Assembly (NCBI GenBank): GCA_905178155.1
Contig: CAJINV010000011.1
Coordinates: forward strand, 1,385,216 to 1,449,215
DNA: 64,000 nucleotides
Direction: 5' to 3'
Origin: Amoebophrya sp. A120
Taxonomy: Eukaryota; Protista; Dinoflagellata
Shown: positions 13,000 to 64,000 of the stretch, piece after piece
How positions within the stretch are numbered: the stretch's first letter is position 1
Layout: each line of letters starts with the position of its first letter
Program-made: the position numbers and the translations under genes
Notes under the pieces: generated by a model
The model's database searches: none
Told to the model about the DNA's origin: nothing
Seen by the model: only the letters and a program-made list of their open reading frames with translations

Positions 13000-13139
13000 T
13001 ATGCATTGCAAAAGCAACGTAGTAGTAGTAATTACATTACAAATTACCTCAGCATGACAAATTGCTGTTTTACCTTGGGATGGAGATTTGTAAATGCATG
13101 TTTGGAATTACTACGAGTACGATACTTTTGCACAGGATA
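13000..13139. mobile_element. Introner (family A); host gene unresolved
   Basis: tatgcattgcaaaag...cttttgcacaggata; perfect DR gcgag. Confidence 0.85.
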
Positions 13140-14126: not shown

Positions 14127-17100
14127 ATGCCGGGTCCAGGAGCTAAACGCTTCATCTCTCCTCAGCCGGGAGGGCTGTGTTTCCGACTGTGTAAGTTCTT
14201 GCAACAGATATTTCTTCTACTCCAACTCCACCCGGGCTGCTGTTTCTGCCACCTCTCGCGGTTATTCAAGTTTTCCGCAGTGTTGCAGCCGACCATCCTT
14301 GGCGTCGTGCATGAGCCGAAAGGAGCCGCCACCAGCGCTGCAAAAACCACCCATGATGCCGACGAGGCGAAGCACAGGGAGGGGGACACTGAAGGAGTAG
14401 ATGTGGGAGCTACTACAACGACTGCCGGGCAACTACATCAAGAGGAAATCCTGCAGCAAAATAGTAGAGACGTTGCCGCCTCTCCCCCATCATCTAGCAC
14501 AAGCACCTCCACTTCCTCGACGGCGCTGGTTTTGTACGAGCCTGCTCGTTCGTCTCAAACCCGACGAGGGCGACGCATGGTGGGGCGCGTGGGCGGCGCC
14601 GCGAGGCCCGTCGAGCGGCCCCCCATTGCGCACGCCCTTCAGGCAGTCGCTGACCTCGTTTACTCAGCTGCGGCCACGTTCCTGCAGTGGCCAGCCTCCT
14701 CGACGAAATCGCAAGAGGGCGCGGGTGCTGGTGATGCGGCAGCGGCCAGGGCGGAAATGGTTCCTGTGGGAGAGGTTTCGTCTTTGCCCCCGCAGCCGGA
14801 GGACGGTAAAAAACTGCAGGCCGCGACGAGCCGAAGGGTTAGGGATGACGCCAGCGATCAGGATTTCGCTGCTGCTGCTCCTTCTGCTGCTAGCATACAC
14901 ACTGCCACTGTGCCTGGAACCGCGGCTACTACAGTAATGACATCACGACAGGACGATCTACGTGCCCCTACAAGTGATGAAGTTGGCCGAGGCTCTGGGT
15001 CGCCGCCTCTACAACCACTACCACCCCCACAGCAGCCGAAAGGCCCGGACAAATTAGAAGATCAAGAGGACAGCGCGGTAACCTCCGAGCCCCGGGAGAC
15101 GAAATTGAACGCAGCAGAAGCATCAAGCCAAAGCTCCCGCGGGAAGAATAAAGCTACCGCAAGTCGTGATCGTAGTGAAGTTGATTCTGCTCCAGCAAAT
15201 TTCCCAGATGGTCGTCATGGCGGTAGGGGAACTGACAGCGCCACGTCCCGCCCTTCCTCTTCGAGTCAGAAAGCGGCCTCCATCAACAAGGCTTCGGTCG
15301 CTACAGCCGTGAAGGACGTCGAAGCTCACTCTCTCACTCGTCCATCCTCTGTTTCTACAACTGGCGCAAGTAGTACCAACGAAGGACCCTCAGTACTACA
15401 TCAAGCTGCAACATCAATGCTAGAGACAGGCGAAAACGACGCCTCATACAACCCAGAATGGGAAAAGGAATGGCTGTTTCAACTCATCGAACAGCGAGCA
15501 AAAATCGAAAGCAGACAAACTGAAAGTGCAGCAACAAGCCAGCAAAAAACAGATGACGCGAAGCGGAAGCGTGAAGACGCTCAGAAAACTGTGGATTTGG
15601 AAAATGCTGCCAAGGCGTTTGACGAGGCGGAGAAAGCGTTCTTCAAGATTCGAAAACAAGGTGAGGATGCGTGGGACGAAATGAAAAAGAAAATCAGCGA
15701 GCGGATCAAAGATGAAGGAGAACAAAAAAAGGCCCTCGCCGACTTTCTGAATAGGTGCTGCCGTCCGAAGCTAACCACCAGTGAAGGGTTGAGCGTGTCT
15801 TCCGCGCCTGGACCCGTCGACGTAACAGGTCGAGGAGAACAGGGTCATGAACCCGGTACGGCGTCCTCCGCCTCCCCGTGTGCGAGTCATTCAATGGAGA
15901 TCTGCGTTTCTTTTGCGGCGGGCGAAGACGCGTTAATAGGCAGAGTAATCGAAATAGAAAAGATGAACTCCTCTGCGCCAAAAGATGAGAATCCGTATGC
16001 GGAGAAAATCAAAACGCATGAAACTAATGCGGATCAACAGAACAATGACAAGAAAAAGAACGAGGACTACGATTCATCACTGTTGCACGTCGCGGTGCGC
16101 GCTGCCGGTATCGACGAAACCTACTACCGAATATTTGAGCACCAATACGTGCGTTTCATTTCATTCGTCCGCATGCGTCGGCGCCCGGCCGTGACTGTCG
16201 GAGAAGGCGGTCTCAACGCCCGTTGGGAAGATGTTGATGAAGAGAAGCAACTACAACCTGTAGCGCTATATGCCGTCTACCCCGGAACAAGTACTAAAGG
16301 TGGAGAACCAGCGTGCTGCGAAATGGCGATGCTCGGCCACCACTTGGATTCGCCAGCCGAAGATGATGCTGCTTCGGATGCCTCTTCGGAATATGAGTTG
16401 TATTCTGAATCTGAGCGCAGTAGTGCTGAACAAGAGCAGTCTTCTCCCTCGAACACGCTGGAGTTGGAGAATAAACCCTTGCCGCTAATTTCAGTACCCT
16501 ACTCGTCCTTGTTCCTGCAGAAGGATGCGGCGCAGGTTTTTTGGACCTGTAAGGAACTGTGCCCAAAAAATCGGAAAATGCTTCCCGTGTTTGATCTCGA
16601 GGGGGACGTATTGCTGAAGAAAATCGTGCAAAACAGTTTTTCTTATTACAGCAGTTTCTACAGTGTGGTCGAGATGATTGTACCCGACGGGATGTGGAGA
16701 GACGTGGGCGATGTTCTGAAAACGGTGAAAGACAGCCCTTTTCGACCTTCACCTTACTATAGGTATATCTCCGCCCCAGAACACAAACCCTGGTGGTCCA
16801 CGTCCGTGAAAAAACTGGCGCGCAACTGCCAGTCGTTTGCGTGTTATGTTTCCAACTTTTTTCCAGTCGCTCGAGTATGCGACATCTTGGCACCCCGCGG
16901 CGCTTTTCCGTATCGCGGCCCGTTCTCCCTCTTACCGGTGCCGACGCTTCAACCGGCCCGGCGTTTGCGCGCGCAAACGTTGGGCGGCCACCCGGTAGAT
17001 CTTGTCGACACGCGCCAAAACTACATGAAAGCCTACCCGGAAGTTTTCTGGGCGGGGCCGCCATGGGTCGCCCGGCGCTTTGAGACACATGGGGCCAAAG

Positions 17101-19005
17101 GATTTTTGAATAGTGCCGCTGGAGTGATTATACAAAAAACACAACCCGTGTGCGGTGTGGCCAACTTGGATCGATTGGACAAAGACGAGCGTGATGCTCT
17201 CGAGGAAGCGGTAAAACGAAAGTCGGGGGTGGAAGAAGATCAAGGTGATAGTAACTCGGATAGCTCAGCCAGTCTAGCATCATTCACTAGTCGCAGCAGC
17301 AGCTCGTTCGGAACCGCCACAGCTACTCCTACTGCTGCGTCTGTCGTATCATCAGCAGCTTCGTCCACGGTGCATCTTCAGCAGGCGGGCCTTGAAGTTG
17401 TGGCGACAGGGAGCGTTCCCGCAGCTTCACCTCCAGGAGCAGTCGAAGCGGCAACCTCTGGCACCACTACTGCAGCTGGTGAACAAGACAGCGGCGCCCA
17501 GGACCACAAGCGTCAACAACATCTTCCTGCTGCCGCCTCTAATGAAAAGAAGAATCTGAACGACAATGAGAACGACCCTGGCCGCGGTAGAGAAGATGTA
17601 GAGTTTGACAAAGCCCAAGCCCTCGGTAGGACCACGAGCATATGAGTTGCAAAAGTATCGCACTCGAACTTTTGCAATACAAATTCAATACTATAGCTTA
17701 GCTTTAGCATGACTTGACGTATGGAATTTGTAATGCGTATTTACCACGATTTAACGTAGCCTAACCTTAAGAAAGGGATTGCACAAATGCAATTACTACG
17801 AACGGGCGCGATCCTTTTGCACAGGATGGAGCAGCTCATCTTCCGCTAACTCTGACGTCGTGGTGGCTGCGCCGACGAAACTTCCGCCCCAGGAGGATAA
17901 CAAAAAGAAAGAGACGAACAACATCAACGACATGGTCGTCGAAACGCCATTTCTCGCAGCAGGAGACGTCGACGCAGTACAGCATCAGGAAGACGTACCT
18001 GCTCAGAAAGCCATCAAACAAAAACGACTCCAAGGAGACGAAGGGTTCAGTGAGGGCGCGCCCGCCGCTGGTCCTGCTCTAGAAGTAGGACGACAAGACG
18101 GCAAGTTAATGCCGAAATCACACGAACAAGATCAAGATGAGGACGATCCTTCCTCCACATCAAGAACTACTTCTACTCCTGTGCACGACATTATTTCCGA
18201 GGGAAAAACCCTGAGTGTGCAAGAAGAAGGTGGCGACGTAGTACAACACGCTTCTGCGACTGCGAGCAGCACAGCAGATGCAGAACCGGTTTCGCAGCTC
18301 GCTGTTGTGCCGCAAGAAGACGACGTGGCTAGCATGCCCAGTTCAGCAACAGGACCAGGCACAACTGCTCGGGACACTGCTCCGGCGGCAGCGACTAGTA
18401 CTATTGCCGGTGATGGTACAACGCGAACAACCGAAGGTGATAGAAACGATATTGGCCGCACGGCCCCCACTGAGCCGCTCATCCCAAGCAGCGCAGTGAT
18501 GAGCAGGACTACTTCCGACGGGGCAGCAGGACCTTCCACGCTCCAGAGCAGCATCGCGGGCGTGGAGGCGGAGGAGGAGCGCCAAGCGTTTGCAAATCTC
18601 AACGGGATCCCGGCTGACGGGAAAACCGACGAAGCTACTAGTGGCGGGGGTAATAACAAGAAGGGAGAAAAAAATCAAAAGTCAGCCAGCGGGGACTTCG
18701 CATCGCTGCGTCAGCAACAGGATGATCCAGAACTAGAACATAAGATAGGGCATCTTCATCAGCGTAGACATGAAAGCGGGCAGACAGCTATTGCGAGCAC
18801 AGCTTATTTGGTTGAGCCGGGCGAGAAGAAGAGTACAGCAACTACACCAGGTGGAACCACCACCACCGTCAAAGAATCGCACATAAAAAATGCAGAAGGC
18901 GACGAGCAACAGCTACAGCAGGAGCTGCAAAACGAAAGTGAACGGCAAAGCGCAGGCCAACCCGCTAGCGTAAAAATTTTTTCAGTAGAGAAATCTATAA
19001 ATTGA
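14127..19005 (+). CDS. Large low-complexity protein with a possible permuted papain-like (PPPDE/LRAT-type) domain; a last exon to about 19205 is possible
   Basis: ORFs 14091-17645 and 17779-19005 are joined in frame by introner 17641-17828. The His motif FEHQYV precedes RNCQSFA. Confidence 0.6.
17641..17828. mobile_element. Introner (family A)
   Basis: tatgagttgcaaaag...cttttgcacaggatg; DR gagca. Removing 193 nt gives GRTTS-SSSSANS. Confidence 0.9.
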
Positions 19006-20112
19006 GTTTGAGTATGAGTTAGCACTTTGACTTCAGAAAAGCGACTTAGAAAAAGACGCGGCCTTCCTGTGTGCTCTAAGAGCTGTTTCCTCTTCAACAC
19101 AGAGTAGAGGAGATTCAAGCGGAATCTGAAAAGTTAGATTTGCCAGCGGTGCCAATTGCACGTGCAGCACAACCCCCAGGCATTTTTAGTGGATCGCTGC
19201 AATAAACAATCCTCAGGTTGCAGGACAACAACCACGAGGGGCACAGGAGGGCTCCCGACCGCTGCAGGTGCCCGAGGACAGTGGACCACTGGGGGAAAAC
19301 CACCCAGCGCCGGAAAAATGAGGCCGACTTTGCGCTCGGTTCGGGTTCGGTTTGTACTGTTTGGTGAGCATGGAAAGGACAGCCCTACATCGAGATAGTC
19401 GCAATGTCGCTGCTTCAGAACAAGTAGCAGATGCAGACGAACTAGTACAGCGAGTACATGGACAGTTTCGTAGTCGCTTCCTTAAGACAAAAAAGTGGGC
19501 TTTTCCTGCATGATAGTGGCGTGCTTGGTTTCGTCGCTGGGAACTGCATCTGTTCTTGCTTCGCTGATCTGTACGCGCTTCCAAATCGCAGAAACCGCCA
19601 ACAATAAAAGTTGTATGTTCCGGCGAAGCCCGGCTCAGTAGGACTTGGCGCTGCAACTGTTCGTGGTTTTGCTTTGTATGATGAAGGCTGCGTCGCCGTC
19701 GGCAGCGACGAAGTGTGACGAACATGATTCTATTTCGTTTTCGTATAGAAATTTGTTGGTCGGAACGTTCTTTCCGGTTTTGCACATTTTCATCTCCATC
19801 GGTGCCTTGCCTCCTTCGTAATTGCTAAATGTCATCTAAAGCAAGATGAGCAGAAGTTCCAACAATCATAGATGTCAGATGCTAGCGTGGAGGAGGTCTT
19901 CGCGATTGAAAGAGCCAGAGATCATCCTCTTCTTGCAGATCATGAAATAACAAGGACGTCGCCGCTACAAGCTTGTTCTACTTTTGGACAAGATCAACTG
20001 GTGACGCCGCAAAGATCATTTTTCTCTCCACGAAGGATCCAAGCGAGAAGCGCAAGCTGCGCGGCTGAAGATCACTTTCATCGGCCACCTAAGATACAAG
20101 TACAAACAAAAG

Positions 20113-20517
20113 ATGACATCACCCGAAATGGAACTAGAGCGCGCACCCGGCATCATCACAGAGCCCCAGCATGCTGGCCGACGAGGCTGCAGTCGGCCTC
20201 GAGCTGTCGACGAGGAGGACGAAACGTCCGAGGCCCCCAAGACAAGCACAGGAACTTCTACGCCCGACCCTTTGGCGAGCAGCGGGGGATCTTCACGCGC
20301 CGGCGACCCTTTGGAAGAAGATGCTGCGGCCAAGGAAAACAGGGTCGGGTTCGACATGGTAAAAACTGCGGTCATGACAATGAAGATACCCGACGAAGAA
20401 GCACGGCAACCGCAACAAGAAAGGCGCGAACAAGAAGAGCAGATCCAGAGAGAGTGCCTGGAGGGCGAAGTAGATCTTGCGGCAGATATACATCAAACTC
20501 CGACTCATCCATGTTGA
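20113..20517 (+). CDS. Hypothetical ORF (possibly an upstream exon of the next gene)
   Basis: 134-aa acidic ORF with host-like composition; no motif recognised. Confidence 0.3.
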   Translation: MTSPEMELERAPGIITEPQHAGRRGCSRPRAVDEEDETSEAPKTSTGTSTPDPLASSGGSSRAGDPLEEDAAAKENRVGFDMVKTAVMTMKIPDEEARQPQQERREQEEQIQRECLEGEVDLAADIHQTPTHPC

Positions 20518-23500
20518 CCTTGAAACACATAATGCCGCTTTCTCAGCGGCCAAGAAATCCTCGGGACGAGCGCGTCCTGCGTACTCTCCTCGTACGACTA
20601 GCACGGGTTGGAACTGGTCTCTTCGGTGCGTTTTTCTACTCTTCAACATCGCACACAATGATTTCCTCTGGACCACCACATTTTGTAAAAGCAGAGCCGA
20701 CGACGACCGCTGCATCACAAATGAAATCCTCCTCCGCAGCAGCAGCTGCCCCAACCAAAGCCACCTCCTTCGAACTCCCGACTTTTTTTACCTGCGACCA
20801 CATCCCGGAGTGGCGAAATTTCCGGAAGCTGTGGCTCCATTTCCGTTATCCTGTGCAAAAGCATCGTACTCGTAGTAATCGCAGTCATGCATGACAAATC
20901 TGGTTCCTTAGCTTATTCAGCATTACAAATTCCATTTTTCCTTCTGGGAAAACTTGTAAAAATGCTATTTCTACTAGTACGATACTTTTGCAATGCATAT
21001 CCGTTTCAACACGAAGATGGGGCGGGACTTCGTGGAGAACGGGATTTTCACCGAGCAGATGCGGGACTCCGCGGAATTCTACGACGTGTTCACATCCGCG
21101 AACGATCTCGGCCGCCGCTGGGAACAGCAGTTCACAACTGCCGTCAATAGTTGGGACTGGTTTTCCATCTGCGAAGCCTTCGTTGAGTATGAAACGGTGG
21201 GGCGGCCGCAGAAGATTTTGAAGCTGGACCCGGAAGTCGCGAACTTTTGCCACTACGGGTTCATGACGACGCAGTACATCGGTATGAAGGTCGGGAACAC
21301 GCTTTTGGACACGATCGCCGGGATCAGTAACTGGGGAAGAGTAGCCAGGCAGGGGCTGGTAACTTCCTTGACGTACAATTCCTTGAATTTCGCGGAAGAC
21401 AGCGGGTGGGGCTTGTCGCTGTGGGACTACATAAAAGCCGCGTACAACCTGCAGAAGCAGAGTGGGGGGTTCGTGTCGCTTGCTAAAAATGCGGGTACTA
21501 CAGCATCATCTCAAAGCACTGACGAGACCTCCTCCTCCGAGGATCTACGCATACACATTGAAAAATCCTTAGAAGACGAAATCGCAAAGTGGAGGAAGAA
21601 GCAGAATCAGCGGACCCCTGTTCACAAGCTGGCTCCGCTCCCGGCGAAGAAAATCTGGAGCACAACATCAACATCCGAGGATGGGGATTCACTTCTTGAC
21701 GGTTCTTGGCGGGGCATCATTGATCTGTTGCTGCAAAGCGAGGTCGTGGTTAGCGGGTTGTCAACTACATCTGCGGGAGCAGGTCTTACAGCCGCGAGGA
21801 GGTCCGCTGATCCGCTGACTGCCATTTTCGGCGTTTCTGCACAGGACTTGGCGCCGTCACCCTATTTTCACCCGCCGGGAGACCAAACTTCTCGTCCAGA
21901 AGTTGCTGCAACATCTTTACTTGAGCAAGAACATCTCGTCCCTACACGACCCTCCCTGAAAGTTCTCGCCGTCGGCTACCACGTTTCCCTTGCTCGCGAG
22001 CCGCTCGAGACGTTTGCGCACCTGCTCGATTTGGACAAGTATTTGAAGCGCGCGATTCACGTTCTGGACGCGGGGGCGACTTCGGTAGAAGACTTGAAGA
22101 AAAAATCCCACTGCCGGTTCAACTCTCCCGAGTGGTGCACGAAGAATGAGGAATTCATCGTCGCCATGAATGCGGAGTTGCAGGTCCGAAGGTACGGCTT
22201 CGCGAGTAAACTGCCCATTTTGCAGAGTTTGGAGAACTGGCAGGAGGTGTTTGAACAGTTCAAATGGGATCTGGTCGAACCGTTTGACTTGGATGTAGTT
22301 CCGAGGACGAAAGGTCAGACAACCACGACTCCACCAGCAGGAGATAGAAACACAGCCACAGGTAAGACTGAATCATTGTCTTCACGACGGCGTTCAGCCC
22401 TCTACCCAGACGTGTTGCTTTGCGGTGAGCCTTTGGTTTTGTGCCGTGTGATGCACCTCGCGTTTCCGAGAGCGTCGCTTGTTTCCTACTCCTATGCACT
22501 GCAAGAATGTCTGGGTCTGGGAGGATGAAACTTGTCATGCTGTCTTTGGATTTTAGAAAAATATGTATTGCGTAAGCCGCAAGAGGAGTCCAGTTTTTGT
22601 TACGCGGAGGGGGCATTTGTCATGCGGTATAGGCATCAGGAAGCCTTCATAAAATCTGTGACGCTAGCGCATACAAGACAGACATCATGGATCATGCAAA
22701 ATGTGCATGACAAGTCCTCCAATCTTCCAGACCCAGACATTTTTGCAATTCATAACTCCGCACAGCAGATCACCATGTACGTGGACGAGCCGATATTGTG
22801 AGGAAAAATCCCCCCTCCCCATATCGAAAAGGCATGCTTTTCAAAATTTGTGAAGATGCTTGTGGTTACAAATCGAGTCTGTCTTGCAAGAGAGCAAGGC
22901 CAGGGCTTCCGCTGCATTTCGCAGGCGATTTGTAACGCTGCTACGCTACTAGGGCAGACGTCTGCCATGCTAAGTGCCTACCCCAAGCCACCCCTTTTCG
23001 GGCTTCGTATCTGTCTGCAGCCCTCCACCGCAAGACAAAGCCGATTTGTGTACACAACTCCTGCGTCACAGATTTCCATTTCGATATGGGGCGGGGGGAT
23101 TTTTCATTTTGATAGCCGAAATTGGCGCAACAGGTTCTGCGGGAATATTTGCAACTCGCACAACTTCCCCACTCTCTCTTCGTCACGAGTGGGAGAATTG
23201 TGAGCGAATGGTACAGGTTTCAGGCCGGAATCCCGGCGATTCCGATAACGCCCAACGCGGTGTACTTGAATGGTGCGTTTTACCACGGGATGAAGTCTCG
23301 GAGAATTTTGCTACTCCGCCAAGTGAGCTTGTTCTGGGACCCGGAGTGCATTCTGAACTATTTCCTGCGCCAGGTTGATTGGTGGCAGGCCGAGGAACCC
23401 GATAAAAAATTTGGCGCCGACGAAGCGATCGGCATGGTTCTCGGGCGGGACGCGAGCGGGGAGCAGGTGGCGGACGAGGAAGTGTTATATCGACTCGGGT

Positions 23501-26385
23501 CACTGTTGATCCGAAAAGAGCAAGACATCAACGACGGTGGGAGAATCGTGCTGGACCTACCCGCGATGGGGGTTGCGGATCCGAGCAGTGTCCTTTTAGG
23601 CACAAGTGTAAGTAGTCAAGAAGCTTCTGAACGACAAGATCCTGGCGCGGCGGACCGGTATTTCGCGGAAAAAGTTTTCGAGCGAAAGCCCTACAGCGAC
23701 AGTGAGGATTTCCTGCAAGAGATGTCGGACATGGCCATGCGGTACTGGCGCGTCGTGGACAAAAACGGGCGCCTGATTGGAGAGCCGGATCATGATCGTG
23801 GCCGCGATGAGGCAGAAACACAAGAAAAACACCTGCCACAGGATGGCGAATTTGACGAAGAGGGCGCAAGAACGCGGGAGCGAGAGGCACGAACAGATCT
23901 TCCAGAAACTGCAACACAAACCACGTTTGATCTTCTCAAACTCTCCCACGACGAGTCCAATTCGAACCTCTCTCCCTTCCCCCACGGCCGCAACTACACG
24001 CTGGAAATATTGACGGAGCAGGCCATTCGCATGCTCTCTATTGAAGGACAGATTCCGGACCATGTCGCGGCCTTGGGAAAGGGGTACGATGACATGAGCC
24101 GGGGGCTGGGAGAAAACGACGAGTCGTTTTCGCGAGTCATGTTCCACGGCCGCAAATTGTACGAAAAGTCCGGGTTTCGGGATTTCGTTTATGGTGATGA
24201 AGCGAAAGTTGGCGAACGAAACCAGCGAGGAGCAGCAAGCAAGGTATTAAGCATGACAGAAGGGAATAGTGATGAATGCGACAAAGCATCAGCCGGTGCA
24301 AAAAGAACGGGACCAGCAACAGCATCATGTTCGTGGCGGTCCGGCAGCTCTAGAAGTGTCGCTCCCACTCCTACCAGCAGCGCCCTCTTCTCCCCCTCCT
24401 CCTACCGGAACCCGCCGACTTTTGAGTTCGTGGAATCAACTTCGTTGTCGAAATCCAATTCCGCGGACTACCAGAGTTTCGGCGCTTTCAAGGCGGTCGT
24501 GATGTTTCCCTACGCCTACACGCAGTTTTGGTTTTTCGAACTGTACTATCAAAAGGAAAAATCCCCCCTCCCCATATCGAAATGGAAATCTGTGATGCGG
24601 GATTTGGGTACACAAATCGGCTCTGCCTTGCAGTGAAAGACTGCAACCAGATACAAAGCCGGAGTAGGGGCGCTTTGGTCTAGGCGCGTGGCAAGACAGG
24701 CGTATCCTCCGTAGGCCATCCAGCATTACAAATTGCTTTCAGAACGCGGAGGAGCCTTTGGATTTGCCTTCTTGCAACACAGAGACGATTTGTGGTCTCA
24801 AATCGGCATCATAGGGGGGAACTAAGGCTCATCGGATATCATGGGGAACTAAGGCTCAAATCGGCAACATCACAAATTTTAAGAAGTGTCCCTGTTTAAT
24901 ATGGGGAGGGGAGATTTTTCCTTGCAATATGTACCACATCGGCGTCCCGATTTTTCTGCCGGAGAAACGAACCTTGCCACTCTACGTGGGCCAGGACTTC
25001 ATCCGCTTCCAATTTTACGTGATTTCGGATCAAGTTCCTTGTCGAGGAGCAGCAGATCAGGAAAATAACGACGACGTCCCGCCAGCACCAGCAGCCGCGT
25101 CCCACGAGTACCACCCGTTTTTAGAACACGCCAACCTCCGCGCCTTCCTCTACTGGGTGCAGTTCTGCGAATGGGTCTCTTGGCCGTTCATCACGGAATT
25201 TGACAGTTTGCGAGGCTTGGTGGAGCACTTCAACCCGAACAGTGACTCCGCGGGGAAGCTAGCGCAAATTTCCCGCAAAATGCGGCAGTTTTCGCAGAAA
25301 GTCACCATGGACAACGCGGCGAAGTGGCGGACGGGACTGGCCGCGGTGCTATCGGTCCCGGTCGCAGAGCGGAAACCGATAACTCTTGCAAGAAAACCTA
25401 GTACAACCGAGATTTCAACGTCTGGTCCTGTCGCTGAAGGTTCCTACTTTTTCGGCGACCTTTCGACGCACCAGCCCTGCGGGGGCAGCCCGGGACGGGA
25501 CGACAGTCCCACACAGAAAGCGAACGACGGGAAAATTCTGCAAGACCACCCGAATGAATACCACATATGCATTACAAATTTCAACCTACCGCGCAGCTAC
25601 ACCGACAAAACGCATCGCAAACTTTGTAAAAATACAAATATCCACTTCAGAGCATTATATCAATCTACAACTTGGCAATCGCAATCTACTGAGTAATAGG
25701 GTAGTTCATGATGCAACTAGAGAAAAAAATCTCACTCTCAGATGAAACTGCGTTTGTTTGTGTGCGTTGTGTCCGAGAAATTTTTTACTGTGCATACGCC
25801 ACGAACGAAAACTACATGCAGCCCGGCGAGGACGCGTTTTGGTGGGTGCAGTTGCGCGAGCACCGGAAAGTGGTCAATGTCACGATTTGGGCACGGGATT
25901 GCTGCTCCGAGCAGATGATGCAAGCAGCAGAGGAACTACGTGTTGAGACCTCCACACCAGAAGTGCCAGAAAAAGCGCAGCATCCAACCCTCGATCTGTA
26001 CCTGTCCGTCGACAGCAACAGTTTAGAGGATGCAATTTTCTGTGGCCAAGTGAAAAACATCGAAGACGGGTCGATTCGGAGCGGGTTATGCGACGTGAGG
26101 GAAGTCGTCACGAGCGAAACCGAAACCGAAAGTCAAAGTGACCACGATCACGAAAGGAAGCACACTGGAGGTCGTGTTCCAGATTCCTATGATGACTACA
26201 AGAAGCAGTTGCTCGACGAGGTCGGGGGCAACGTGTTGTTCGTGGTGAACCGAGCGAAGAAACGGGACGGAATAGTTCCACCTCCGGAGCCCGCAAGTTT
26301 GATGCTTCCCGAGGTGTTGGTGTCGGATGTTGGATGGGTGCCGGACCGATACCAGATGGAGGCAGGGGAATTGGTGGTTCCCTGA
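20511..26385 (+). CDS. Large protein with a putative glycosyltransferase-like region and a C-terminal F-type-lectin/discoidin domain; 6 exons split by 5 introners
   Basis: ORFs 19872/20993/22532/23122/24929/25708 join in frame after removing five introners. KANDG...YHT...FWWVQL...VVNVTIWARDCC fits an F-type lectin fold. The GT-like call (FKAVVMFPY...ELYHIGVPIFLP) is weaker, and the start codon is uncertain. Confidence 0.7.
20847..20999. mobile_element. Introner (family A, reverse orientation)
   Basis: tatcctgtgcaaaag...cttttgcaatgcata; DR tccgt. Removing 158 nt gives WLHFR-FNTKMG. Confidence 0.92.
22493..22754. mobile_element. Introner (family B, tgtctgggtctgg TIR)
   Basis: tatgcactgcaagaatgtctgggtctgg...ccagacccagacatttttgcaattcata; DR actcc. 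Removing 267 nt gives VSYS-AQQIT. Confidence 0.92.
22794..23114. mobile_element. Introner (family C)
   Basis: tattgtgaggaaaaatcccc...ggggatttttcattttgata; DR gccga. Removing 326 nt gives VDEP-KLAQQ. Confidence 0.92.
24547..24929. mobile_element. Introner (family C, opposite orientation to 22794-23114)
   Basis: tatcaaaaggaaaaatcccc...gatttttccttgcaata; DR tgtac. Removing 388 nt gives FELY-HIGVP. Contains an internal duplication of ggggaactaaggctca. Confidence 0.92.
25566..25796. mobile_element. Introner (degenerate)
   Basis: tatgcattacaaatttc...gaaattttttactgtgcata; DR ccaca/cgcca. Removing 236 nt joins ORFs 24929 and 25708. Confidence 0.75.
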
Positions 26386-27202
26386 AAGGAAGTCTATGCA
26401 TATTGATTTTATTTCGCAGTGCCAGTACTCATACTCAATGCCGAGGAAGACCAGTAGTTAAGTACATGATAGATTTAGATAGTAGAATAGAATGAAGGTC
26501 ATACAAGAAGCAGAAGAAAAGACTACGAACCGAAAGAATAAGAAAACCGCATTAATACTCACATTACCACGGGAACTACAAAAATGGAAACCACCCTTTT
26601 TTGAGATTAGATAATTCGAAAACTTTCGAGTTTTCATCGTGCTTGGCAACCTGCTGTTGTCGTTGAAGATGCTGTCGGACATAGTACCTAAAAAAACAAA
26701 ATATATCTTCCGTCAAGTCGTCACATAAGGGTCGTAAGTGTGGGGTATAATTAGGAGTCGTCATCGTCGCAGGGGGAGGAGTCGTCATCGTCGCAGTGGT
26801 CATCATTTGAATTTTTCACGCGTATGTCTACGATTCCGTCTACGTTCGGTTTTGGTGTCGTCCTTTACATACGTATTTGTTTTGCATTTATGGGCGTGGG
26901 CGTGCACCAGGGAAATGTATATGACAACCGCTAAAAAAATAGCTCGTTGCAGAATGCCACACTTGTAAGCAGGAAGCGGAAGATGAACAGCTCCTACACT
27001 TGTACGTCGTGGATCTTTCAAGAAGTAGAGCGCGATCTTCTCGGAGTACTAGATGAACCAGCGACTGCAGCGAACTCAGGATCTCTTTTTTTTCTGCCAC
27101 TCGGCCACTTCTACGTCTCAGTCGTGCCCACTCGGGCACTAGGTTCGTGGCAGCTGCATTCAAGTATTGTGCAAAACAGGGACCACGTTGCCCTTGAACG
27201 AA

Positions 27203-28177
27203 ATGTTTTCGAAACGTCAACTCTGCCCAGCGCGACTGGATGTGCTGGCTCCTACCCCTACAGCGCGATCAAGGAAGATCTTCCTGACCATAATTCTCGC
27301 ATGGGTCTACATTCTGAGCCAGCATCAGGTCTCCATTGTTGACGCGCTAGATCCGCAGAAGATACAACAAGGTGACCAAGATGAAAAGCAAGCACAAAGT
27401 CCAAGACGAGAACCTGGTGGTCGTTCATCCGCACCAGAGAACAACGAGGTAGAAGGAGCTCAGTACCACGTGCCTTCGACCGAGCGCCAGTCGTCCACCG
27501 CGAGTACATCAACCACGGCGAGTGGAGGGGCAGTTTTGAAGAAGCAAGAGAAAAAAGAGGAAAAACAAGGCACACATGATCGACTCAACAGTCCGCTGGA
27601 CCACCACCAGCTTCAGGGCAAAGCCAAAGACCGCGGTGAGGAAGAGCATAAGGGAGATCACCAAACTTCTTCTGCCGGTGAAGATCGTCATCAAGCCGAC
27701 AGCACGACAGCGGCAGATGGTGATCGTGCTCTGAAGCAGAAGCTGCGCCATGGTAAGAACAACAAAATGCGGGAAGGTCCTCGCGGAAATGAAAAGACAA
27801 GGAGAAACAATAAGACGGGAGACATTTCATCCCGTGCTGAACGCGCTTCCTCATCTCGGCAAGAGCAAGATGTTGACCACGAAGCTCATCGTGCATACGT
27901 TCAGCAGGGTCACGTGTTTCTGTGCGGTGGGTTCGGGGTTCTTCTGTTTCTCCTCTCGCTTGTGCTCTTGTATTTTTGCGCTTGTCATGTACAAGAGAAT
28001 CAGGTGCACGGCTCGTGGGTGGCGATGTTCAGCAGGTACAGCACTAGCGGCCCCTACACGGAACAAGTTGTTCAAGTTTCTGAGCATGACCATTATCCGA
28101 CAGCACAACCAGAAGATTCAACATCGCACCACGACCACGAACGACGAACAAAGAACAAAAGGCCGCGGCACAAGTGA
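27203..28177 (+). CDS. Hypothetical type-I membrane protein
   Basis: N-terminal hydrophobic segment (IFLTIILAWVYIL), a charged low-complexity middle and a TM helix (FGVLLFLLSLVLLYFCAC). Confidence 0.6.
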   Translation: MFSKRQLCPARLDVLAPTPTARSRKIFLTIILAWVYILSQHQVSIVDALDPQKIQQGDQDEKQAQSPRREPGGRSSAPENNEVEGAQYHVPSTERQSSTASTSTTASGGAVLKKQEKKEEKQGTHDRLNSPLDHHQLQGKAKDRGEEEHKGDHQTSSAGEDRHQADSTTAADGDRALKQKLRHGKNNKMREGPRGNEKTRRNNKTGDISSRAERASSSRQEQDVDHEAHRAYVQQGHVFLCGGFGVLLFLLSLVLLYFCACHVQENQVHGSWVAMFSRYSTSGPYTEQVVQVSEHDHYPTAQPEDSTSHHDHERRTKNKRPRHK

Positions 28178-28429
28178 CCGGCGACGTGTTCTGAAAGAAG
28201 AACGACGGCCACGAGGAAAAAGCGTGCTAGGCGCAGCTCCGGAGTACACGGCAAGCGTTGGGCTCGACCCGAAGTCTTGGTGTTGTAGATGAAACGTTGG
28301 CTGGTTCTTTCTATTGAAAGTTGCGATCAAATTTCGCATGGTCGAACAAGAGCAAAAGAAAACTAAATGTTTTTCTCTGTCGTAGTTCACAAGCACGAGC
28401 GACGTCGTGGATAGAAATTGTCGACAGTC

Positions 28430-29330
28430 CTATCTATGGAGGCGGGTCGTTCTCTACGACAAAAAAAACAATAGAGCGCAGCAGCAGCTTGCTTGCGCCC
28501 CTGGCCAATTGCTGTTGGCTTCTTTGACATTGCGTGGCGGGGCTTTAGTATTCAGATTTTTTCGCGCCCATTCCTTTTGTGGCGCGCTTGCGGATCGCAG
28601 TTTTTCACTTATGACTCCGCTCTCTTTCGGTGGTGCTTGATGTATTTCCTCCTGATGTGGTTTCTAAAAAGTCATCTTGGTGCTAACCACACCAAGAAAA
28701 GCTTCTGCTCCACTAAGAAGAGAAAAATACGATGGCACTACAACGCGGAAGGGGGGATCCAGCGAGTTAGTATCAGTCGAAAATCGACTTACACGCGAAT
28801 TTCGACCTTCCTGGTGTCAGTGACACGCGACTGAACCTAAAAGAAAATCCATCTGCCGAGTTCAGTTTCACGTCGAAAACCGACGGCGCGCTGGATCGCC
28901 GAAAACTCCCTTCCGCAACACAAATTTTCGAACCTTTCTGGGAGCTAAAACAAATTCCCTCTGCTACGGCCCTGTTTCTTCAGGGTGTCATGGAAAAATT
29001 TTCACGCGCTGCGCGCACGGAAATGCCCTCAGCGCCGTGCGCCCCCACGCGTCAAAAGAAAAAACTCGCTCGCGCGCCGCGCGCGAACCACTTCAAACCA
29101 TACCAGACTTCGCCGTGCAAGAATTACGTCTGTCACGGTCAAAAAAGTAAGAGACTAAGAAGCCGCGCTTAAAATCAAATTTGGCCAGTCGAAGCATTTT
29201 GGATTTTTGAAATCCGATTTTGGATCGGAGTAAATCGCTGAGGTTTTGCGACGACCGGATGACCGACCGCACCTACCCCCCCCTTCTCGATACCGAGAAG
29301 GGGGTCGATTAATCGTACGGGCTCCTAAAA
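28430..29330. mobile_element. Non-coding insert ending in a 26-nt GC hairpin plus a 26-nt tail (..ctcctaaaa)
   Basis: Bounded by 61-bp units; hairpin cccccttctcg-atac-cgagaaggggg at 29279-29304. The same end architecture recurs at 30687-30738. Confidence 0.6.
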
Positions 29331-29391
29331 GTTTTTCTCTGTCGTAGTTCACAAGCACAAGCGACGTCGTGGATAGAAATTGTCCACAGTC

Positions 29392-30358
29392 TTGCCCTGC
29401 GGTTTCGTGTTGTAAAATATTTCCTCGCCGAAGCGAAGAAGTTTGGCCGTGTCGAAGTCCTCACCGTAGGCTTCCCGGTGGGAGTTGCTGCCATTCAGGC
29501 ACTTTCGCGGCATTATCGACAAACAGAAAACGTAGTGCTTTATCGCATAGCACCACAATTTTTTCGGCAGTCCGGAGTCAGCGATGAGTGTTCTTGTGCC
29601 CGCGAGGGCCAGCTTGTTCAACACCTCCGCGCCGCCATTCATCGGCGAGGAGTAGTAGGAGGTGAAGACTTGGACTATTCTGTTAGCCCGGCACTCGGCC
29701 CGGAACCGCTCCGAAATAAATTCGCCACCATTGTCCGACTTCAGCCGGCGCGGGGCGGTGTGCTTCGCGATCCAGAGTCGCAGGCCATTGACGCTGTCAG
29801 CCTTGCGGCGCAACGGCGCCACCTCCGGCAGCCGCGTCTTCTTGTCCGCTATGGTCATCGCAAATTTGTGTCCGTGTATGGACTCCGGTAGAATTGGGCC
29901 GCAGAGGTCCGTGCTGATTTCGTCATTGAATGTCAGTCGGCCCTCGTACTGGTCATCCCGCGGCCCCGCCCGGTGTGGAGCCTTTGCTGCTCTGGAGATC
30001 GTGCAACTCTGGCAGAACCCGCGGTATGGCAGTATGTGTGCGCTGCGGCAGTGGTCTTCGTAGCTGTAAGTTAGACACGTGTGCTCCTCCTTGGAGGTAT
30101 TTTTGTGGAAAACTACATAAAACAAACCATTTTGGAATCTATGAATGCTAACGCTCTTCTTCTCCTGGCCGGGGAGGAAGAGCTTTGTCAGGTCCGTGCT
30201 AAAGCGAAATCCTTTCTGCAGCAAAATGCTGACAGAAAGAATGTTGAAAGGGATACTTTCGTTGAAAATCGCCCTGCTGATTACGATCAGCAGGTTGTTG
30301 TTAGCCAGCGGCTTGGGTTTGCATATTGGTGCCTTGACTGGCTCACCGAATATGCCCG
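29392..30358 (-). mobile_element. Ty1/copia pol fragment (end of protease region, HHCC zinc finger, complete DDE integrase core); no LTRs, gag or RT
   Basis: NILSVSILLQKG, NGLFYV, HCRSAH...CQSC, ISTDLCGP, LKSDNGGEF, MNGGAEVLNK, SGLPKKLWCYA; reading frame uninterrupted. Confidence 0.92.
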
Positions 30359-30408
30359 AGTTCACAAGCACGAGCGACGTCGTGGATAGAAATTGTCGAC
30401 AGTAGGCC

Positions 30409-30657
30409 ATCCTCCGTAGGCCATCCAGCATTACAAATTGCCTTCAGAACAACGCGGAGGAGTTTTCGGATTTGCCTTCTTGCAACACAGAGACGATGTG
30501 TGGTGTCAAATCGGCATCACAAATTTTAAGAAGTGTCCCTGTTTAATATGGGGAGGGGAGATTTTTCCTTGCAATATGTACCACATCGGCGTCCCGATTT
30601 TTTTGCCGGAGAAACGAACCTTGCCACTCTACGTGGGCCAGGATTTCATCCGCTTCC
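30409..30657 (+). repeat. Displaced copy of 24704-25010 (3' half of a family C introner plus about 80 nt of the following exon)
   Basis: Near-identical sequence including the ..ttgcaata|tgtac junction and YHIGVPIFLPEKRTLPLYVGQDFIRF. It lacks the ~60-bp internal duplication of the source. Confidence 0.95.
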
Positions 30658-31441
30658 GGGAGGTTGGTCTCCAGCGGGCCGCTACCCCCCCTTTCGCCAT
30701 GGCGAAAGGGGGTCCAATTGTTGCACAGCCTCCTAAAAGTTTTTCTCTGTCGTAGTTCACAAGCACGAGCGACGTCGTGGATAGAAATTGTCGACAGTCT
30801 GCCAGCACGTCTATGCTTCCATCTTTGGCAGATGCTGCGGACTGTTGTTTCACTCAGATGCACCCTACTTCGTTTCCGCATGGTGCTGAGGATCATGGAG
30901 TCTTGTATTTGAAAAAAAGCGATCATGCAGCATGGTACCTGCACTAGGACACAACATCATGCTGGAGGAACGCCATTTATTCATGTTCTTCGTCAGAATA
31001 TTTTGAATGGCGGCTGTTCACGACCTCCGGGAATAGCAACTTCTTTCATTTCTGATGTTGGATTTGGATCTACTGCATAGGCGCAACTACACCGTAAAGA
31101 TCAGACTCACTAACTACGCGTTCAGCTGCAGCAGAACCCATAGAAAACCGTAGAGGGAGGTGGTTGAAACTTTCATTTTTACTTGACAAGTTTTGATGGT
31201 CTCGAGGAGTGCCTGCACAGTAAAAAATACAAACGCAACCTTCTTTCCATTGATCCTGTTCTTGTTCCAAAATGAGAACGTAACCACAATCCAGCTGCGC
31301 CACCGGCTTTCCTTTGTTTTGTACTTCGGCCTAATTTCATTTTTGAGCACTACTGCACTTTCTTGGGCTTCTAGTACTGGTTCACCACTTTGACGAACGT
31401 ACTTTTTCCAAGAAAAAAAAAGCAGAAATAGAGAACCGATC

Positions 31442-34400
31442 ATGCTGCGCAAAAAGATGTTGGCAAACACCACGACGGCGCTCGTCGCTGTTGCGGCGGG
31501 CCACGGGGAGTTTCGTTCCGTTTTCGGAAAAATGCGACTCCACAAGGCCCAGCCCATGGGTCCAATACCTCCGAGCGGCGATAGCTTCCACCTCGAGAAG
31601 ATGAACGACGAAGAAGATGGCTTCAATGCGATCGATTTTGCCGACCTCGCCCGCGATGAGCCCGCGGGCAGGACGCCGGCCGCTCCGTCCATGCAGATGT
31701 GGGAGCAGCTGCCTCCGAGTGACGCTTTTCAAAGCGCAAAGGAGCGCCTGGACGGGGCGATTCGCGAGGATGAAGAGGAGGAGAATTCTTCACTCGTCGG
31801 GGGAGATGAAGAAGACCACGAGCAAATGGATGTCGATGAGGAGGTGGAACAAAATACGGTTGATGATAAACTGTCGCCGAGAACCACGGGTACTAGTAGC
31901 ACGCCATCAACATCAGCGCCGACTCCAACACCTGCCACAGTTCATCTTCCTGCGGGCTTCGTGTTGTCAAAATCTTCCGGAGGAGGTGTTGGCGCACCAA
32001 GAGCTGCTGCGACTGGTGGCGCAGGTTCCTCTCCTACTGCGTCTTCCTCCACAACTTCTGTAGTTTCCTCGGGAGGTCCGCGCGTGCTCGGCACGCTTTC
32101 GATGGAAGACGCCCTGCTGGCGGGCACCGAGAAGCTCCGCGCGGCGCGGTTGCGGTACTACTCGCGCGAACGTAAGATGGAGGGCGCGCGGCAGCGGGAA
32201 ACTAGCACGGCGCGCCTGGAGCGGCAGCACGGCGGCGCGGGGACCGCGGAAGAATTTGTGCGGAACGTCAAGAGGGAGCCGGAGTTCTCGGCCGGAGTGA
32301 CCCGCGAAATGCAGTTTGTGCTGCGGAACCGGTTGGAGCACGCCGGAGTGGTGGTGCCACAGTCTACTTCCTCTGGTATGAACTGCAAAAGTATCGTATT
32401 AGTAGCTTCTAGTAGTAATTGCAATACAAATTAGCCCAGCATGACAAATGGAATTTGTCATCTTGTTTTGCCTTGGGATGGAGATTTGTAATGCATGACT
32501 GCGATTACAACTACGAGTGCGATACTTTTGCACAGGATATCTGGAACGGCGCGGAAACGGGCCGCGAATCTGAGTGTCGGGGTAGCGCAGCTGCGAGGAG
32601 CTTATGTTGGAAGGGGTCAACAACATGATCATCCGCGCATGGCTTCAACGTGTTCCTCGGAGAAAGAGGAGGAAGACGAGCTGTGTGGCCTGTTTGGGAC
32701 AAAGTGCGCAGTAAATAAAATAGTACACACTGATAATGAAACGAGGAAACCATTAACATTATCCGCTGATGATGTGACCACGGGAACCGATGGTAATGAA
32801 CCGATGGGGGAACACGAACAAGACCAGGCGGTCTTTCGTGTTGAACAAAGTGTTGACCAAGGAGAAGGACCACTTTTTCAAAATACACAAGAAATCCGAG
32901 GTGGACAACGATCACGGGAGAACAGCAACATTAAAGCCGACCTGCGCCGCGCGTCTTCCGCAACACGGCGAAGCAAAAACAAGGGCCTGCTTGTTGATGT
33001 TCAAGGAGGAAAGAGTCCCAAGCTGCCAAGTACGGTTGGGGAACAAGAACGGGAAAACAATAAGTCCGCAGCCTCTACTAATCCCACTTCTCCTGCTCCG
33101 GGTTCCCACGGCAGCACATCAAGTAGTACCACAGAGCTCTTCGCACGACTGCAGGCACAGCGGGAGCGGATCGCAAGCCAGGAAGCTGCGGGAGGGGTCG
33201 TCGGTGTAGAACAAACCGGTATCACAGCAAGGACTGGTGGTCATCGAGGTGGCTATCTGGCAGCAGATGAAGAAAACGCAGGCGTCAGCGGCCGCGAGTG
33301 CGCCGAGCTGTCCACGATGCTGTCCGCCCGGCGAAGAACGATGCAGGCCGGAGATCTTCATGGAGGTGAACAGCCTGGTGTGGACTATGGTGCTGACGAA
33401 CCAGCATTCAGTGCCGACGTGGAGGAGCTGGCGCGATCGCGTATGAATCGCATCGGTTGCAGCAAAAAAACGGCTCGGAGGGCAGGTGCTCCGGAGCATG
33501 ATGTGAGGAGCCGCACTGCAACGTCCCAGGGCCCGGCCAGTCGCGAGCTCGCGATGAAGCTCGAGCATCGGTTGGCAATCGAGCGAAACTGGAATCCGCT
33601 GGTTACTGTGGTACGTGTTGTAGTAGTACTTTACGCCCAGATACTTAAATGATAATAAAGAGTGCTTCAACAGTAAAAGAGAGAGACCACAACATTTCAG
33701 ATTTTCAATTTGATTTTGTTCCCGTTTGTGGTAGTTGTGATCAACAATAAAACCCCCGCTGGCCTTTTCTGCAGTTATTTGAAGAAGATCTACTTCCCCG
33801 CGGCCAACGATTTTCTTCAAATGACCCAGAACAACATCGATCTTCAACTTCCATCACACCACAGGGCTTTCGCAAACAGCAAGAGGCCGACCCGGACATT
33901 GTGAAGTTTGTGAAGCTATCAAATGCAAAAATGTCTGGGTCTGGAAGAATGCAGACTTGTCATGCATATTTTCCATGCCCCATGACTATGACATCTGGAA
34001 TGCAGGACCTAGCATGACAGATTCTGCGAAGTCTCTATCATGCCTCTCCTGAATGAGAAACTCCCGCTCATGTTGGTCAAAAAAGGACAACTTTCGGTAA
34101 TCACGCAACACAGACTTTTGTGTGACCCACAGGACGCATCACAAGTTCCATCCTTCCAGACCCAGACACTTTTGCATTTGATAGAAGCAGTTGACTGAGG
34201 AGCTCGACCCGGCCACGCGGCGCGAACGCTTCGACGAGCGCATAAAGCTGGAGCGAGGGAAGATGGAACGTGACCTGCAACAGGTGAACAAGTTTCTGGA
34301 AAAGAAATTGGTGAAATCGCGCGAGACGTTGGACAAACTGCTCGCGGACCGGAAGTATCATCTGCAAAAGTATCGTACTCGTACTAAAACTAATCGCAGC

Positions 34401-34862
34401 ACAGCATGACAGATCTGGCTTTCTACCTAATTCCCCATGACAGGTTTCGTTCTTCCTTCGTTCTGAAAAAATTTGTGATGCAGCTTATTCCACTAGTACG
34501 ATATTTTTGCAATGCATAAGAAGCAGTTGGGCACCCTGCGGATCAAGTACCTACAGGACGCTCTTGACAAACTCCCGGGTGGAAAAGGCGGGTTTTACGA
34601 GAAGCTCCGTCCCTGGTTTTTGGCCTCCACCAACACGGACAAGGCGGATGCCCTGATCGCCCAGCAGAGTGCGCCCCTGCTCTCGGCCAGTCAGAAGAGA
34701 GCCAAAGAAGCAGAGCTGGCGAGGAGCAGTGGTTCTTCGGCTTCCACCTCCACCTCGGGCTCCGCTTCTGATCCGAGCGTCGGGCAAGGACAAGAGCCAA
34801 GAAAAGTGCTCGCGGAAAAGACGAAGGATGTAGCTGCTCCGGGAGCCAAACCTTTGCCGTAG
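31442..34862 (+). CDS. Hypothetical protein; 5 exons (introners 32377, 33917, 34356; GT-AG intron 33611-33774)
   Basis: Frames join as STSSG-TARK, PLVTV-LFEEDLL, KFVK-QLTEE and ADRK-QLGTL; stop at 34862. Confidence 0.75.
32377..32539. mobile_element. Introner (family A)
   Basis: tatgaactgcaaaagtatcg...cgatacttttgcacaggata; DR tctgg; 168-nt removal is in frame. Confidence 0.92.
33917..34183. mobile_element. Introner (family B)
   Basis: tatcaaatgcaaaaatgtctgggtctggaag...cttccagacccagacacttttgcatttgata; DR gaagc; 272-nt removal is in frame. Confidence 0.93.
34356..34518. mobile_element. Introner (family A, reverse orientation)
   Basis: tatcatctgcaaaagtatcgtact...agtacgatatttttgcaatgcata; DR ggaag/agaag; 168-nt removal is in frame. 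Confidence 0.9.
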
Positions 34863-42230: not shown

Positions 42231-42492
42231 TATCAGATGCAAAAATGTCTGGGTCTGGAAGAGTGCGCCACTTGTCATGCAGCTTTTCCATGACCCATGA
42301 GGCTTGGAATGCAGGACCCAGCATGACAGATTCTGTGCGATCTCTCTCATGCCTGTCCTGCATGAGAAACTCCCTCCCGACTTGGTCAAAACTGGACGAC
42401 TCTTGGTAATCATGCAACACAGATTTTTGCATGCTTCAGATTTTGCATGACAAGTTGCATTCTTCCAGACCCAGACACTTTTACATTTGATA
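42231..42492. mobile_element. Introner (family B); host gene unresolved
   Basis: tatcagatgcaaaaatgtctgggtctggaag...cttccagacccagacacttttacatttgata; perfect DR tacta. Confidence 0.9.
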
Positions 42493-42557
42493 TACTACCA
42501 GCAGGAGAGTTACAACCACGAGAAGCCGGCGGAGTTTCTGCATTGCTGCTAGGACTA

Positions 42558-63986: not shown

Positions 63987-64000
63987 TGCTGGATTTCGAT

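What the first reader, a model, noticed from the sequence alone, without database searches (positions are those of the whole stretch)
17641..34518. The same introner family appears to work as an intron in both orientations
Seen: family A ends in ...gcacaggat(a/g) at 17641 and 32377 but starts with the reverse complement tatcctgtgc at 20847 (similarly 34356); all are in + strand genes. Family C copies 22794-23114 and 24547-24929 are reverse complements of each other within one gene. All restore the frame. Known: spliceosomal signals (donor, branch point, acceptor) are strand-specific. Inference: removal depends on a symmetric feature, such as the TIR hairpin or palindromic motifs, pointing to structure-guided RNA excision or DNA-level excision.
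Basis: partly seen in the sequence, partly recalled or inferred. Interest (0 to 1): 0.78.

Follow-up and report, generated by a model that had tools for sequence, protein, structure and literature searches.

The report
Transposon introns spliced in either direction
In the marine parasite Amoebophrya, already-known transposon-like introns sit in genes facing either way and are missing from assembled transcripts in both directions without normal splice signals, likely because their mirror-image ends give the RNA-cutting machinery the same signal whichever way they face.

Summary
Observation confirmed. The window encodes an Amoebophrya sp. A120 protein, and the inserts are its published introner elements (TAT...ATA inverted ends, 5-nt duplication; Farhat 2021). 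RNA-type contigs skip exactly element+5 nt at 9 of 9 elements in 15500-35400, including families A, B and C in both orientations; none has GT-AG in any register. In a second assembly without RNA data, 298 exonic copies show no orientation bias (A 26:31, B 72:55, C 11:12), both orientations interrupt RPB1, and the two ends are indistinguishable in transcript orientation. A DNA run keeps six other elements with no empty sites, so DNA excision is unlikely. The symmetry inference holds, but it does not by itself point to a structure-guided or non-spliceosomal route: two-way introners are known in Polarella and Aureococcus, and G-U versus A-C mismatches (69:68) show no selection on RNA pairing. I found no statement of orientation neutrality for these elements in print. 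Best reading: a relaxed spliceosome likely reads the symmetric ends in a fixed register. The scan noted this element class and a 1+4 cut before on other pieces of this genome.

The parts
17641..17828 (+). Family A introner, forward sense, duplication GAGCA; 193 nt skipped in RNA-type contigs
20847..20999 (-). Family A introner, reverse sense, in + strand gene P0001; duplication TCCGT; 158 nt skipped
22493..22754 (+). Family B introner, duplication ACTCC; 267 nt skipped
22794..23114 (+). Family C introner, duplication GCCGA; 326 nt skipped
24547..24929 (-). Family C introner, reverse complement of 22794-23114, same gene; duplication TGTAC; 388 nt skipped
25566..25796 (.). Diverged unassigned element with decayed duplication (CCACA/CGCCA); 236 nt skipped, which puts the 5' cut 0-2 nt before TAT
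32377..32539 (+). Family A introner, forward sense, duplication TCTGG; 168 nt skipped; a canonical-looking GTATGA...GCACAG pair is present and not used in the contigs
33917..34183 (-). Family B introner, opposite sense to 22493; duplication GAAGC; 272 nt skipped
34356..34518 (-). Family A introner, reverse sense, same gene as 32377; duplication GGAAG/AGAAG; 168 nt skipped
18970..19216 (+). Canonical GT-AG intron skipped on the same contig as 17641 (shows that the contigs are spliced RNA)
33611..33864 (+). Canonical GT-AG intron skipped on the same contig as 32377, 33917 and 34356
14082..19320 (+). Host gene 1 (open frame from 14082; start not fixed; no Pfam match)
20511..26385 (+). Host gene 2 = P0001, unnamed Amoebophrya sp. 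A120 protein of 1499 aa, five elements, A reverse and C in both senses
31442..34862 (+). Host gene 3, with family A in both senses
9878..10040 (+). Further family A copy, forward (also 13000-13139, 37589-37765, 47224-47393, 54101-54268); no RNA junction seen for these
49109..49381 (+). Further family B copy, sense of 22493 (also 53446-53709, 57412-57684; opposite sense 42231-42492, 56680-56983); no RNA junction seen for these

Best explanation
These are Amoebophrya A120 introner elements, short transposon-like inserts with inverted ends and a 5-nt duplication, that occur in both orientations in genes and are absent from RNA-type contigs in both, likely because a relaxed spliceosome reads the mirror-image ends in a fixed register. 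Shown: both orientations of three families are skipped with the same length rule (element+5 nt) and without GT-AG. Shown in a second assembly: no orientation bias, no base preference in the duplication, and no difference between the two ends on the transcript strand. Inferred: a transposase inserts the element in random orientation and makes the 5-nt duplication; because the ends are inverted repeats, the transcript always begins TAT(C/G)...AAAA and ends TTTT...(C/G)ATA, with the same subterminal motifs. Inferred: the 5' cut falls 1-2 nt before TAT and the 3' cut 3-4 nt after ATA; with the cut one base before, the intron starts N-TAT, which matches the host's canonical GTA donors at +2 and +3. 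Inferred and untested: the catalyst is the spliceosome, with the demand for G at +1 and for the terminal AG lost, and the 3' cut measured from the element end or from the paired ends.
For: 9 of 9 elements skipped as element+5 in X3 and X4, on contigs that also skip two GT-AG introns. X3 covers little of 51000-64000 (9 of 30 bins) where X1 covers all 30, so X3 behaves as RNA and X1 as DNA. Host protein is 100% identical to an A120 protein whose model skips the same five elements (not independent of RNA data). Second assembly: exonic orientation counts A 26:31, B 72:55, C 11:12, both orientations in 9 of 9 families of five or more members, nearest exonic relative same:opposite 141:142. Strand calls checked by Pfam: 10 of 128 frames on the called strand hit, 0 of 128 on the other. 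RPB1 in L050 carries B and C in both senses, and removal gives gap-free alignment to P0002 at 4 of 4 junctions. Ends symmetric at 20 of 20 positions, GT-AG or GC-AG in any register in 12 of 298. Register bounds: 25566 and an L072 copy where keeping the whole 5' duplication gives TGA. Canonical donors are GTA in 2 of 2 RNA-supported window introns and at 6 of 8 homology gaps in RPB1. A120 keeps U2, U4, U5, U6 and 83 of 89 spliceosomal proteins, with U1 not detected (PMC7789003).
Against: No call tests the catalyst: no lariat, branch point or intermediate was seen. No G at the base before TAT (31%, like its neighbours) and no AG enrichment, so both near-universal spliceosomal signals would have to be lost. 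At 32377 a canonical-looking donor and acceptor pair is bypassed, which a spliceosome that also handles GT-AG introns must somehow ignore. No polar branch-point motif was found (14 of 16 k-mer tests null; CGT p 0.010 and ATCGT p 0.045 in the first 40 nt do not survive correction for 16 tests). One family is skewed 4:16 (p 0.012 uncorrected). RNA evidence is assembled contigs of one sample, so efficiency and minor forms are unseen. The register rests on one RNA case and one frame case from different assemblies. The second assembly has no RNA data.
Confidence: 0.55

Rival explanations
1. The elements are cut from RNA by a separate, non-spliceosomal activity that recognises the paired inverted ends (an endonuclease-ligase route, as suspected for euglenid nonconventional introns).
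For: Hairpins are predicted on both strands (nine spliced elements: sense z -2.4 to -8.5, antisense -1.2 to -12.0, 20 shuffles each). No splice-site or branch-point polarity. Arms that both changed stay paired in 50 of 72 cases. A canonical pair at 32377 is bypassed. Euglenid precedent in the review PMC11282704.
Against: Copy-specific G-U and A-C mismatches are equal (69:68; 271:273 overall), so no selection for RNA pairing is visible. The poorly paired element 25566 is still skipped precisely. Arm covariation can come from subfamily descent or DNA repair. The likely 5' end resembles canonical GTA donors.
Confidence: 0.3
2. The elements are excised from DNA (as ciliate IESs are) in the cells that transcribe the gene.
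For: Transposon anatomy and orientation neutrality are what a transposase-type excisase would give. The DNA test did not cover the named elements by a lay, and contigs drop rare forms.
Against: DNA run X1 holds 0.96 of the sampled words of 17000-26500. Its contigs run through 6 of 6 elements in 53446-58801, and none of the 12 joints listed is an empty site. The window and the second assembly both hold the elements, also inside RPB1.
Confidence: 0.05
3. The skips are reverse-transcriptase template switches across a hairpin between short direct repeats, so the elements are not really removed in the cell.
For: Hairpins flanked by short direct repeats are the classic setting of this artefact (own knowledge), and it would be blind to orientation. 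All RNA evidence here is from sequencing-library contigs.
Against: Genes cannot be translated otherwise: six of the nine skips are not multiples of three, and four inserts interrupt RPB1, one inside the conserved DTAVK-TSETGYIQRR stretch. The skip at 25566 is exact with only 2 nt of repeat. Element+5 is the best frame-restoring length in 155 of 238 perfect-duplication copies.
Confidence: 0.06
4. Each orientation uses its own cryptic canonical splice sites.
For: Forward family A carries TTTTGCACAG near its 3' end, and a G before TAT makes GTAT in 93 of 298 copies.
Against: 0 of 9 RNA junctions can be read as GT-AG or GC-AG in any register, and no canonical pair within 15 nt of the ends gives the observed length. 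12 of 298 in the second assembly. The skip is element+5 in both senses.
Confidence: 0.02

Closest known systems
Introner elements among the non-canonical introns of Amoebophrya sp. A120 (Farhat et al. 2021, PMC7789003; outline, sections 10, 11, 12, 16, term passages and supplement text passages read)
   Same: Same strain, inverted ends starting TAT then seven variable bases then an A run, 5-bp direct repeats, hairpin, no GT-AG, repeated families, RNA support.
   Different: The text I read does not address element orientation relative to the gene (4 main-text and 3 supplement hits for 'orientation'; those shown concern genes). Supplement figures could not be seen. Added here: equal use of both orientations, symmetric ends, one length rule.
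Two-way introners of Polarella glacialis and Aureococcus anophagefferens (Roy et al., bioRxiv 10.1101/2020.10.14.339549, passages read; Huff et al. 2016 not held, known here only through that preprint and the review PMC11282704)
   Same: Transposon-derived introns with target duplications; several classes form introns in either orientation.
   Different: Those use GT/GC/GA donors and AG acceptors carried by the element or taken from a constrained duplication, and the passage read reports a bias to one orientation. Here no dinucleotide constraint and no bias in A, B or C.
Euglenid nonconventional introns (review PMC11282704, section 6 read)
   Same: Non-canonical junctions, inverted ends that can pair, duplication-like repeats, unknown mechanism.
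   Different: Euglenid junctions follow a pyrimidine|purine consensus and are released as circles; here the duplication has no base preference and the released product is unknown.
Non-canonical introns of Fritillaria borealis (review PMC11282704; PMC13326754 abstract and one term passage)
   Same: Transposon-derived introns escaping GT-AG, removed by a changed spliceosome; the precedent for the best explanation.
   Different: They keep preferred ends (AG-AC, AG-AT) and the lineage keeps U1; in Amoebophrya U1 snRNA was not detected and the ends are free.

Membership tests
Amoebophrya A120 introner elements | Host is Amoebophrya sp. A120 | tested here: met
   Exon 23116-24540 is 100% identical to P0001 named for A120
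Amoebophrya A120 introner elements | Inverted repeats at the two ends, starting TAT, seven variable bases, then at least three A | tested here: met
Amoebophrya A120 introner elements | 3-5 nt direct repeat at the boundary | tested here: met
   5-nt repeat perfect in 7 of 9 RNA-supported elements, 4 of 5 in one, decayed in one
Amoebophrya A120 introner elements | Removed from transcripts without GT-AG | tested here: met
   9 of 9 skipped in RNA-type contigs, 0 of 9 canonical
Amoebophrya A120 introner elements | Repeated families | tested here: met
Two-way spliceosomal introners (Polarella/Aureococcus type) | Intron formed in either orientation | tested here: met
Two-way spliceosomal introners (Polarella/Aureococcus type) | GT/GC/GA donor and AG acceptor from the element or the duplication | tested here: not met
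   0 of 9 with GT-AG, GC-AG or GA-AG in any register; 12 of 298 GT-AG or GC-AG
Two-way spliceosomal introners (Polarella/Aureococcus type) | Removal by the spliceosome through a lariat | not testable with these tools
   no raw RNA reads of this strain covered the region
MITE (non-autonomous TIR DNA transposon) | Short, terminal inverted repeats, fixed-length target duplication, many copies | tested here: met
   312 of 396 with a perfect 5-nt duplication, partly by the search rule; frame test favours +5
MITE (non-autonomous TIR DNA transposon) | A cognate autonomous element with the same ends and a transposase | not tested
   no genome held; Farhat et al. report no putative transposase in A120
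Euglenid nonconventional introns | Pyrimidine|purine junction consensus | tested here: not met
   no base preference at any duplication position
Euglenid nonconventional introns | Released as circular RNA without lariat | not testable with these tools
   needs RNA experiments
Ciliate-type internally eliminated sequences | Absent from the DNA that is transcribed | tested here: inconclusive
   DNA contigs keep 6 of 6 elements, but those lie in a gene without RNA cover and contigs drop rare forms; word share 0.96 for the named region

The most novel reading that the evidence does not exclude
Amoebophrya removes tens of thousands of transposon introns from mRNA by a second, non-spliceosomal pathway that recognises only the paired inverted ends, is blind to strand and to junction sequence, and restores the pre-insertion message exactly, so that any insertion of the element in any exon in either direction is harmless.
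Probability: 0.3. Interest if true: 0.85.

Novelty: new variant of a known kind. Interest (0 to 1): 0.45.

Why it matters
How Amoebophrya removes its non-canonical introns has been open since 2021. Orientation neutrality says that everything the machinery needs is present on both strands of the element, which excludes a one-way internal signal and confines the search to the inverted ends and their paired subterminal motifs. Opposite-facing copies of one family in one gene (A at 32377 and 34356, C at 22794 and 24547) are ready-made matched pairs for lariat or circle mapping and for efficiency tests. It also explains how such elements can spread so far: neither orientation nor target sequence appears to be filtered. 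Introner catalogues that demand same-orientation similarity (methods passage of PMC12130899) would split or miss such families.

Tried and rejected
No whole genome is held, so no genome-wide count for A120; a second assembly stood in. The second lay (51000-64000) was meant to map junctions at decayed duplications, but X3, X5 and X6 gave no joint and no bridging cover in the gene at 52818-59137. In one search two of the 13 joint rows (22814-23093 with a 22-nt side; 22830/24868 on opposite strands) and two rows of table 5c were set aside as cross-matches from other copies. The TIR pattern found nothing in viral contigs. Pfam found nothing in the 11 exon pieces of the three host genes; Rfam found nothing in the window. 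Polarising 36 single-mismatch duplications by codon score gave one informative case; mutation direction at mismatches was unclear. G-U versus A-C test null. Huff et al. 2016 is not held. Paper searches; two searches returned 0 papers; none of the passages read states orientation neutrality for Amoebophrya elements. Subscription papers (Roy 2023 Current Biology, Henriet 2019), bioRxiv supplements and supplement figures were not visible and could bear on this.

Full report
Observation. The named coordinates are starts of inserts that begin TAT and end AT(A/G) between 5-nt direct repeats. Aligning 23 window elements with 35 nt trimmed from each end assigns orientation from the core, not from the near-symmetric ends. 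Family A is forward at 9878, 13000, 17641, 32377, 37589, 47224 and 54101 and reverse at 20847 and 34356. Family B has 22493, 49109, 53446 and 57412 against 33917, 42231 and 56680. Family C has 22794 against 24547.

Removal. Contigs of runs X3 and X4 (one sample, RNA by the tool's guess) laid on 15500-35400 give 13 joint rows. Nine are the nine elements of that stretch, each skipped as element+5 nt; two are GT-AG introns; two are cross-matches that I set aside. One X3 contig skips forward A (32377), a GT-AG intron, reverse B (33917) and reverse A (34356); one X4 contig skips B and both C copies. A contig is a path, not one molecule. The joins restore + strand frames, and the annotated protein P0001, 100% identical and named for Amoebophrya sp. 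A120, has the same five joins (that annotation is not independent of RNA data). None of the nine can be read as GT-AG or GC-AG in any placement within the repeat, and no canonical pair within 15 nt of the ends gives the observed length. At 32377 the contigs pass over GTATGA...GCACAG, which would leave 8 extra bases. Raw RNA runs X9 and X10 did not cover the region, so efficiency by orientation is unmeasured.

DNA or RNA. On 51000-64000 run X1 covers 30 of 30 bins at about 43-fold outside repeats, while X3 covers 9 of 30: X1 behaves as DNA and X3 as RNA. X1 contigs run through the six elements between 53446 and 58801, and none of its 12 joints is an empty site. Limits: that gene had no RNA cover, contigs drop rare forms, and for the named elements I have only the word share of 0.96.

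What it is. Farhat et al. 2021 (PMC7789003; sections 10-12 and 16) describe introner elements in A120 with inverted repeats starting TAT and ending in an A run, 3-5 nt direct repeats, hairpins and free splice dinucleotides; they found most of the spliceosome but no U1 snRNA and left the mechanism open. The window's elements meet each feature that I could test. Their text and supplement text mention orientation only for genes in the passages shown.

Orientation at scale. In 127 merged sequences (500 kb) a scan found 396 elements against 2 in one shuffle. A codon model trained on window exons gave a strand and an open frame across the join for 298; 61 had only a locus strand and 37 none, and these 98 are left out of the counts. 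Pfam hit 10 of 128 long frames on the called strand (9 loci) and 0 of 128 on the other. Orientation counts are B 72:55 (p 0.16), A 26 forward:31 reverse (p 0.60), C 11:12; nine of nine families with five or more members occur both ways; one is skewed 4:16 (p 0.012 before correction); the nearest exonic relative is in the same sense 141 times and opposite 142 times. Of 130 same-family pairs in one locus, 49 lie in one stop-free frame, 28 of them opposite and 21 alike. Element+5 is the best of three lengths equally in both senses (B 40 of 50 and 32 of 40; A 20 of 26 and 15 of 20; C 6 of 9 and 7 of 9, among copies with a scoring frame). The RPB1 gene in L050 has B and C each in both senses, and removal gives gap-free alignment to P0002 at 4 of 4 junctions tested. 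This assembly has no RNA data, so splicing there is inferred.

Where the signal lies. On the transcript strand the 5' arm and the reverse complement of the 3' arm have the same base composition at 20 of 20 positions (the first three fixed by the search rule); the duplication has no base preference; GT-AG or GC-AG occurs in any register in 12 of 298. Elements lack the A over T skew of the flanks. Sixteen k-mer tests for polarity gave 14 nulls and two nominal hits in the first 40 nt (CGT p 0.010, ATCGT p 0.045) that do not survive correction. A subterminal motif CAT(G/C/T)AC and its reverse complement sit in mirror positions, peaking 40-50 nt from the 3' and the 5' end; it could be a transposase site or supply a branch point either way, which is untested. 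Hairpins are predicted on both strands, yet copy-specific G-U and A-C mismatches are 69 and 68, so selection on RNA pairing is not visible; both arms changed and still paired in 50 of 72 cases, which descent or DNA repair can also explain.

Register. At 25566 the decayed repeat puts the 5' cut 0-2 nt before TAT. In L072 a reverse-sense C copy gives TGA if the whole 5' duplication is kept, so its last base must come from the 3' copy. Together the cut lies 1-2 nt before TAT, in line with the 'one before, four after' rule that earlier unreviewed notes of this scan proposed and that I took from them. In that register the intron starts N-TAT, and the host's canonical donors are GTA.

Mechanism. Orientation neutrality follows from inverted ends: the transcript shows the same terminal sequence either way. 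It therefore locates the signal but does not name the enzyme. I favour a relaxed spliceosome (0.55) for the donor-like start, the retained core machinery and the Fritillaria precedent; a pairing-guided non-spliceosomal route remains open (0.30); DNA excision, template-switch artefact and cryptic sites are unlikely.

Novelty. The elements are published. Two-way introners are described for Polarella and, by that preprint's account, Aureococcus, with canonical-type sites and a bias to one orientation. What I did not find in print in nine searches is that the non-canonical Amoebophrya elements work equally both ways under one length rule. That is a useful constraint on an open question, not a new system.

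Noticed in passing
window 54646-55580; also 1652-2475, 42488-43395, 45462-46847, 59746-60169: A second kind of insert flanked by long direct repeats of 44-73 nt. The one at 54694-55532 has partly inverted ends, is high-copy in DNA run X1, and removal with one repeat leaves an open frame. 42556-43334 has introner-like TAT...ATA ends inside a 68-nt repeat.
   Followed up: partly
window 28363-30804: Nested units bounded by a 45-67 nt repeat (28363, 29325, 30359, 30733); a - strand frame 29352-30443 has a weak integrase core match (Pfam rve E 1e-4, below cut-off); 30409-30657 is a copy of the 3' half of the C element at 24704-24929 plus the exon behind it, which looks like captured host DNA.
   Followed up: partly
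window 56295-56490 and 57412-57684: Elements with no recognisable duplication where only removal of element+5 (modulo 3) opens a frame, which hints that the cut is measured from the element; no RNA cover.
   Followed up: partly
L050 about 6025-6995 and 7540-7779: In RPB1, a family B element enlarged to about 970 nt, and another element sitting inside a canonical GT-AG intron.
   Followed up: no
L001-L136: Another assembly shares families A, B and C with A120 although the elements were described as strain-specific; one of its families is skewed 4:16 in orientation.
   Followed up: partly
window 6537-9128: Long + strand frame with a lysine methyltransferase domain (PF10294, E 2e-11).
   Followed up: no
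window 50438-50844 and 45500-46750: A 114-nt tandem repeat coding Gly/Lys/Asp/Cys-rich units, and a GC-rich low-complexity repeat open in several frames.
   Followed up: no
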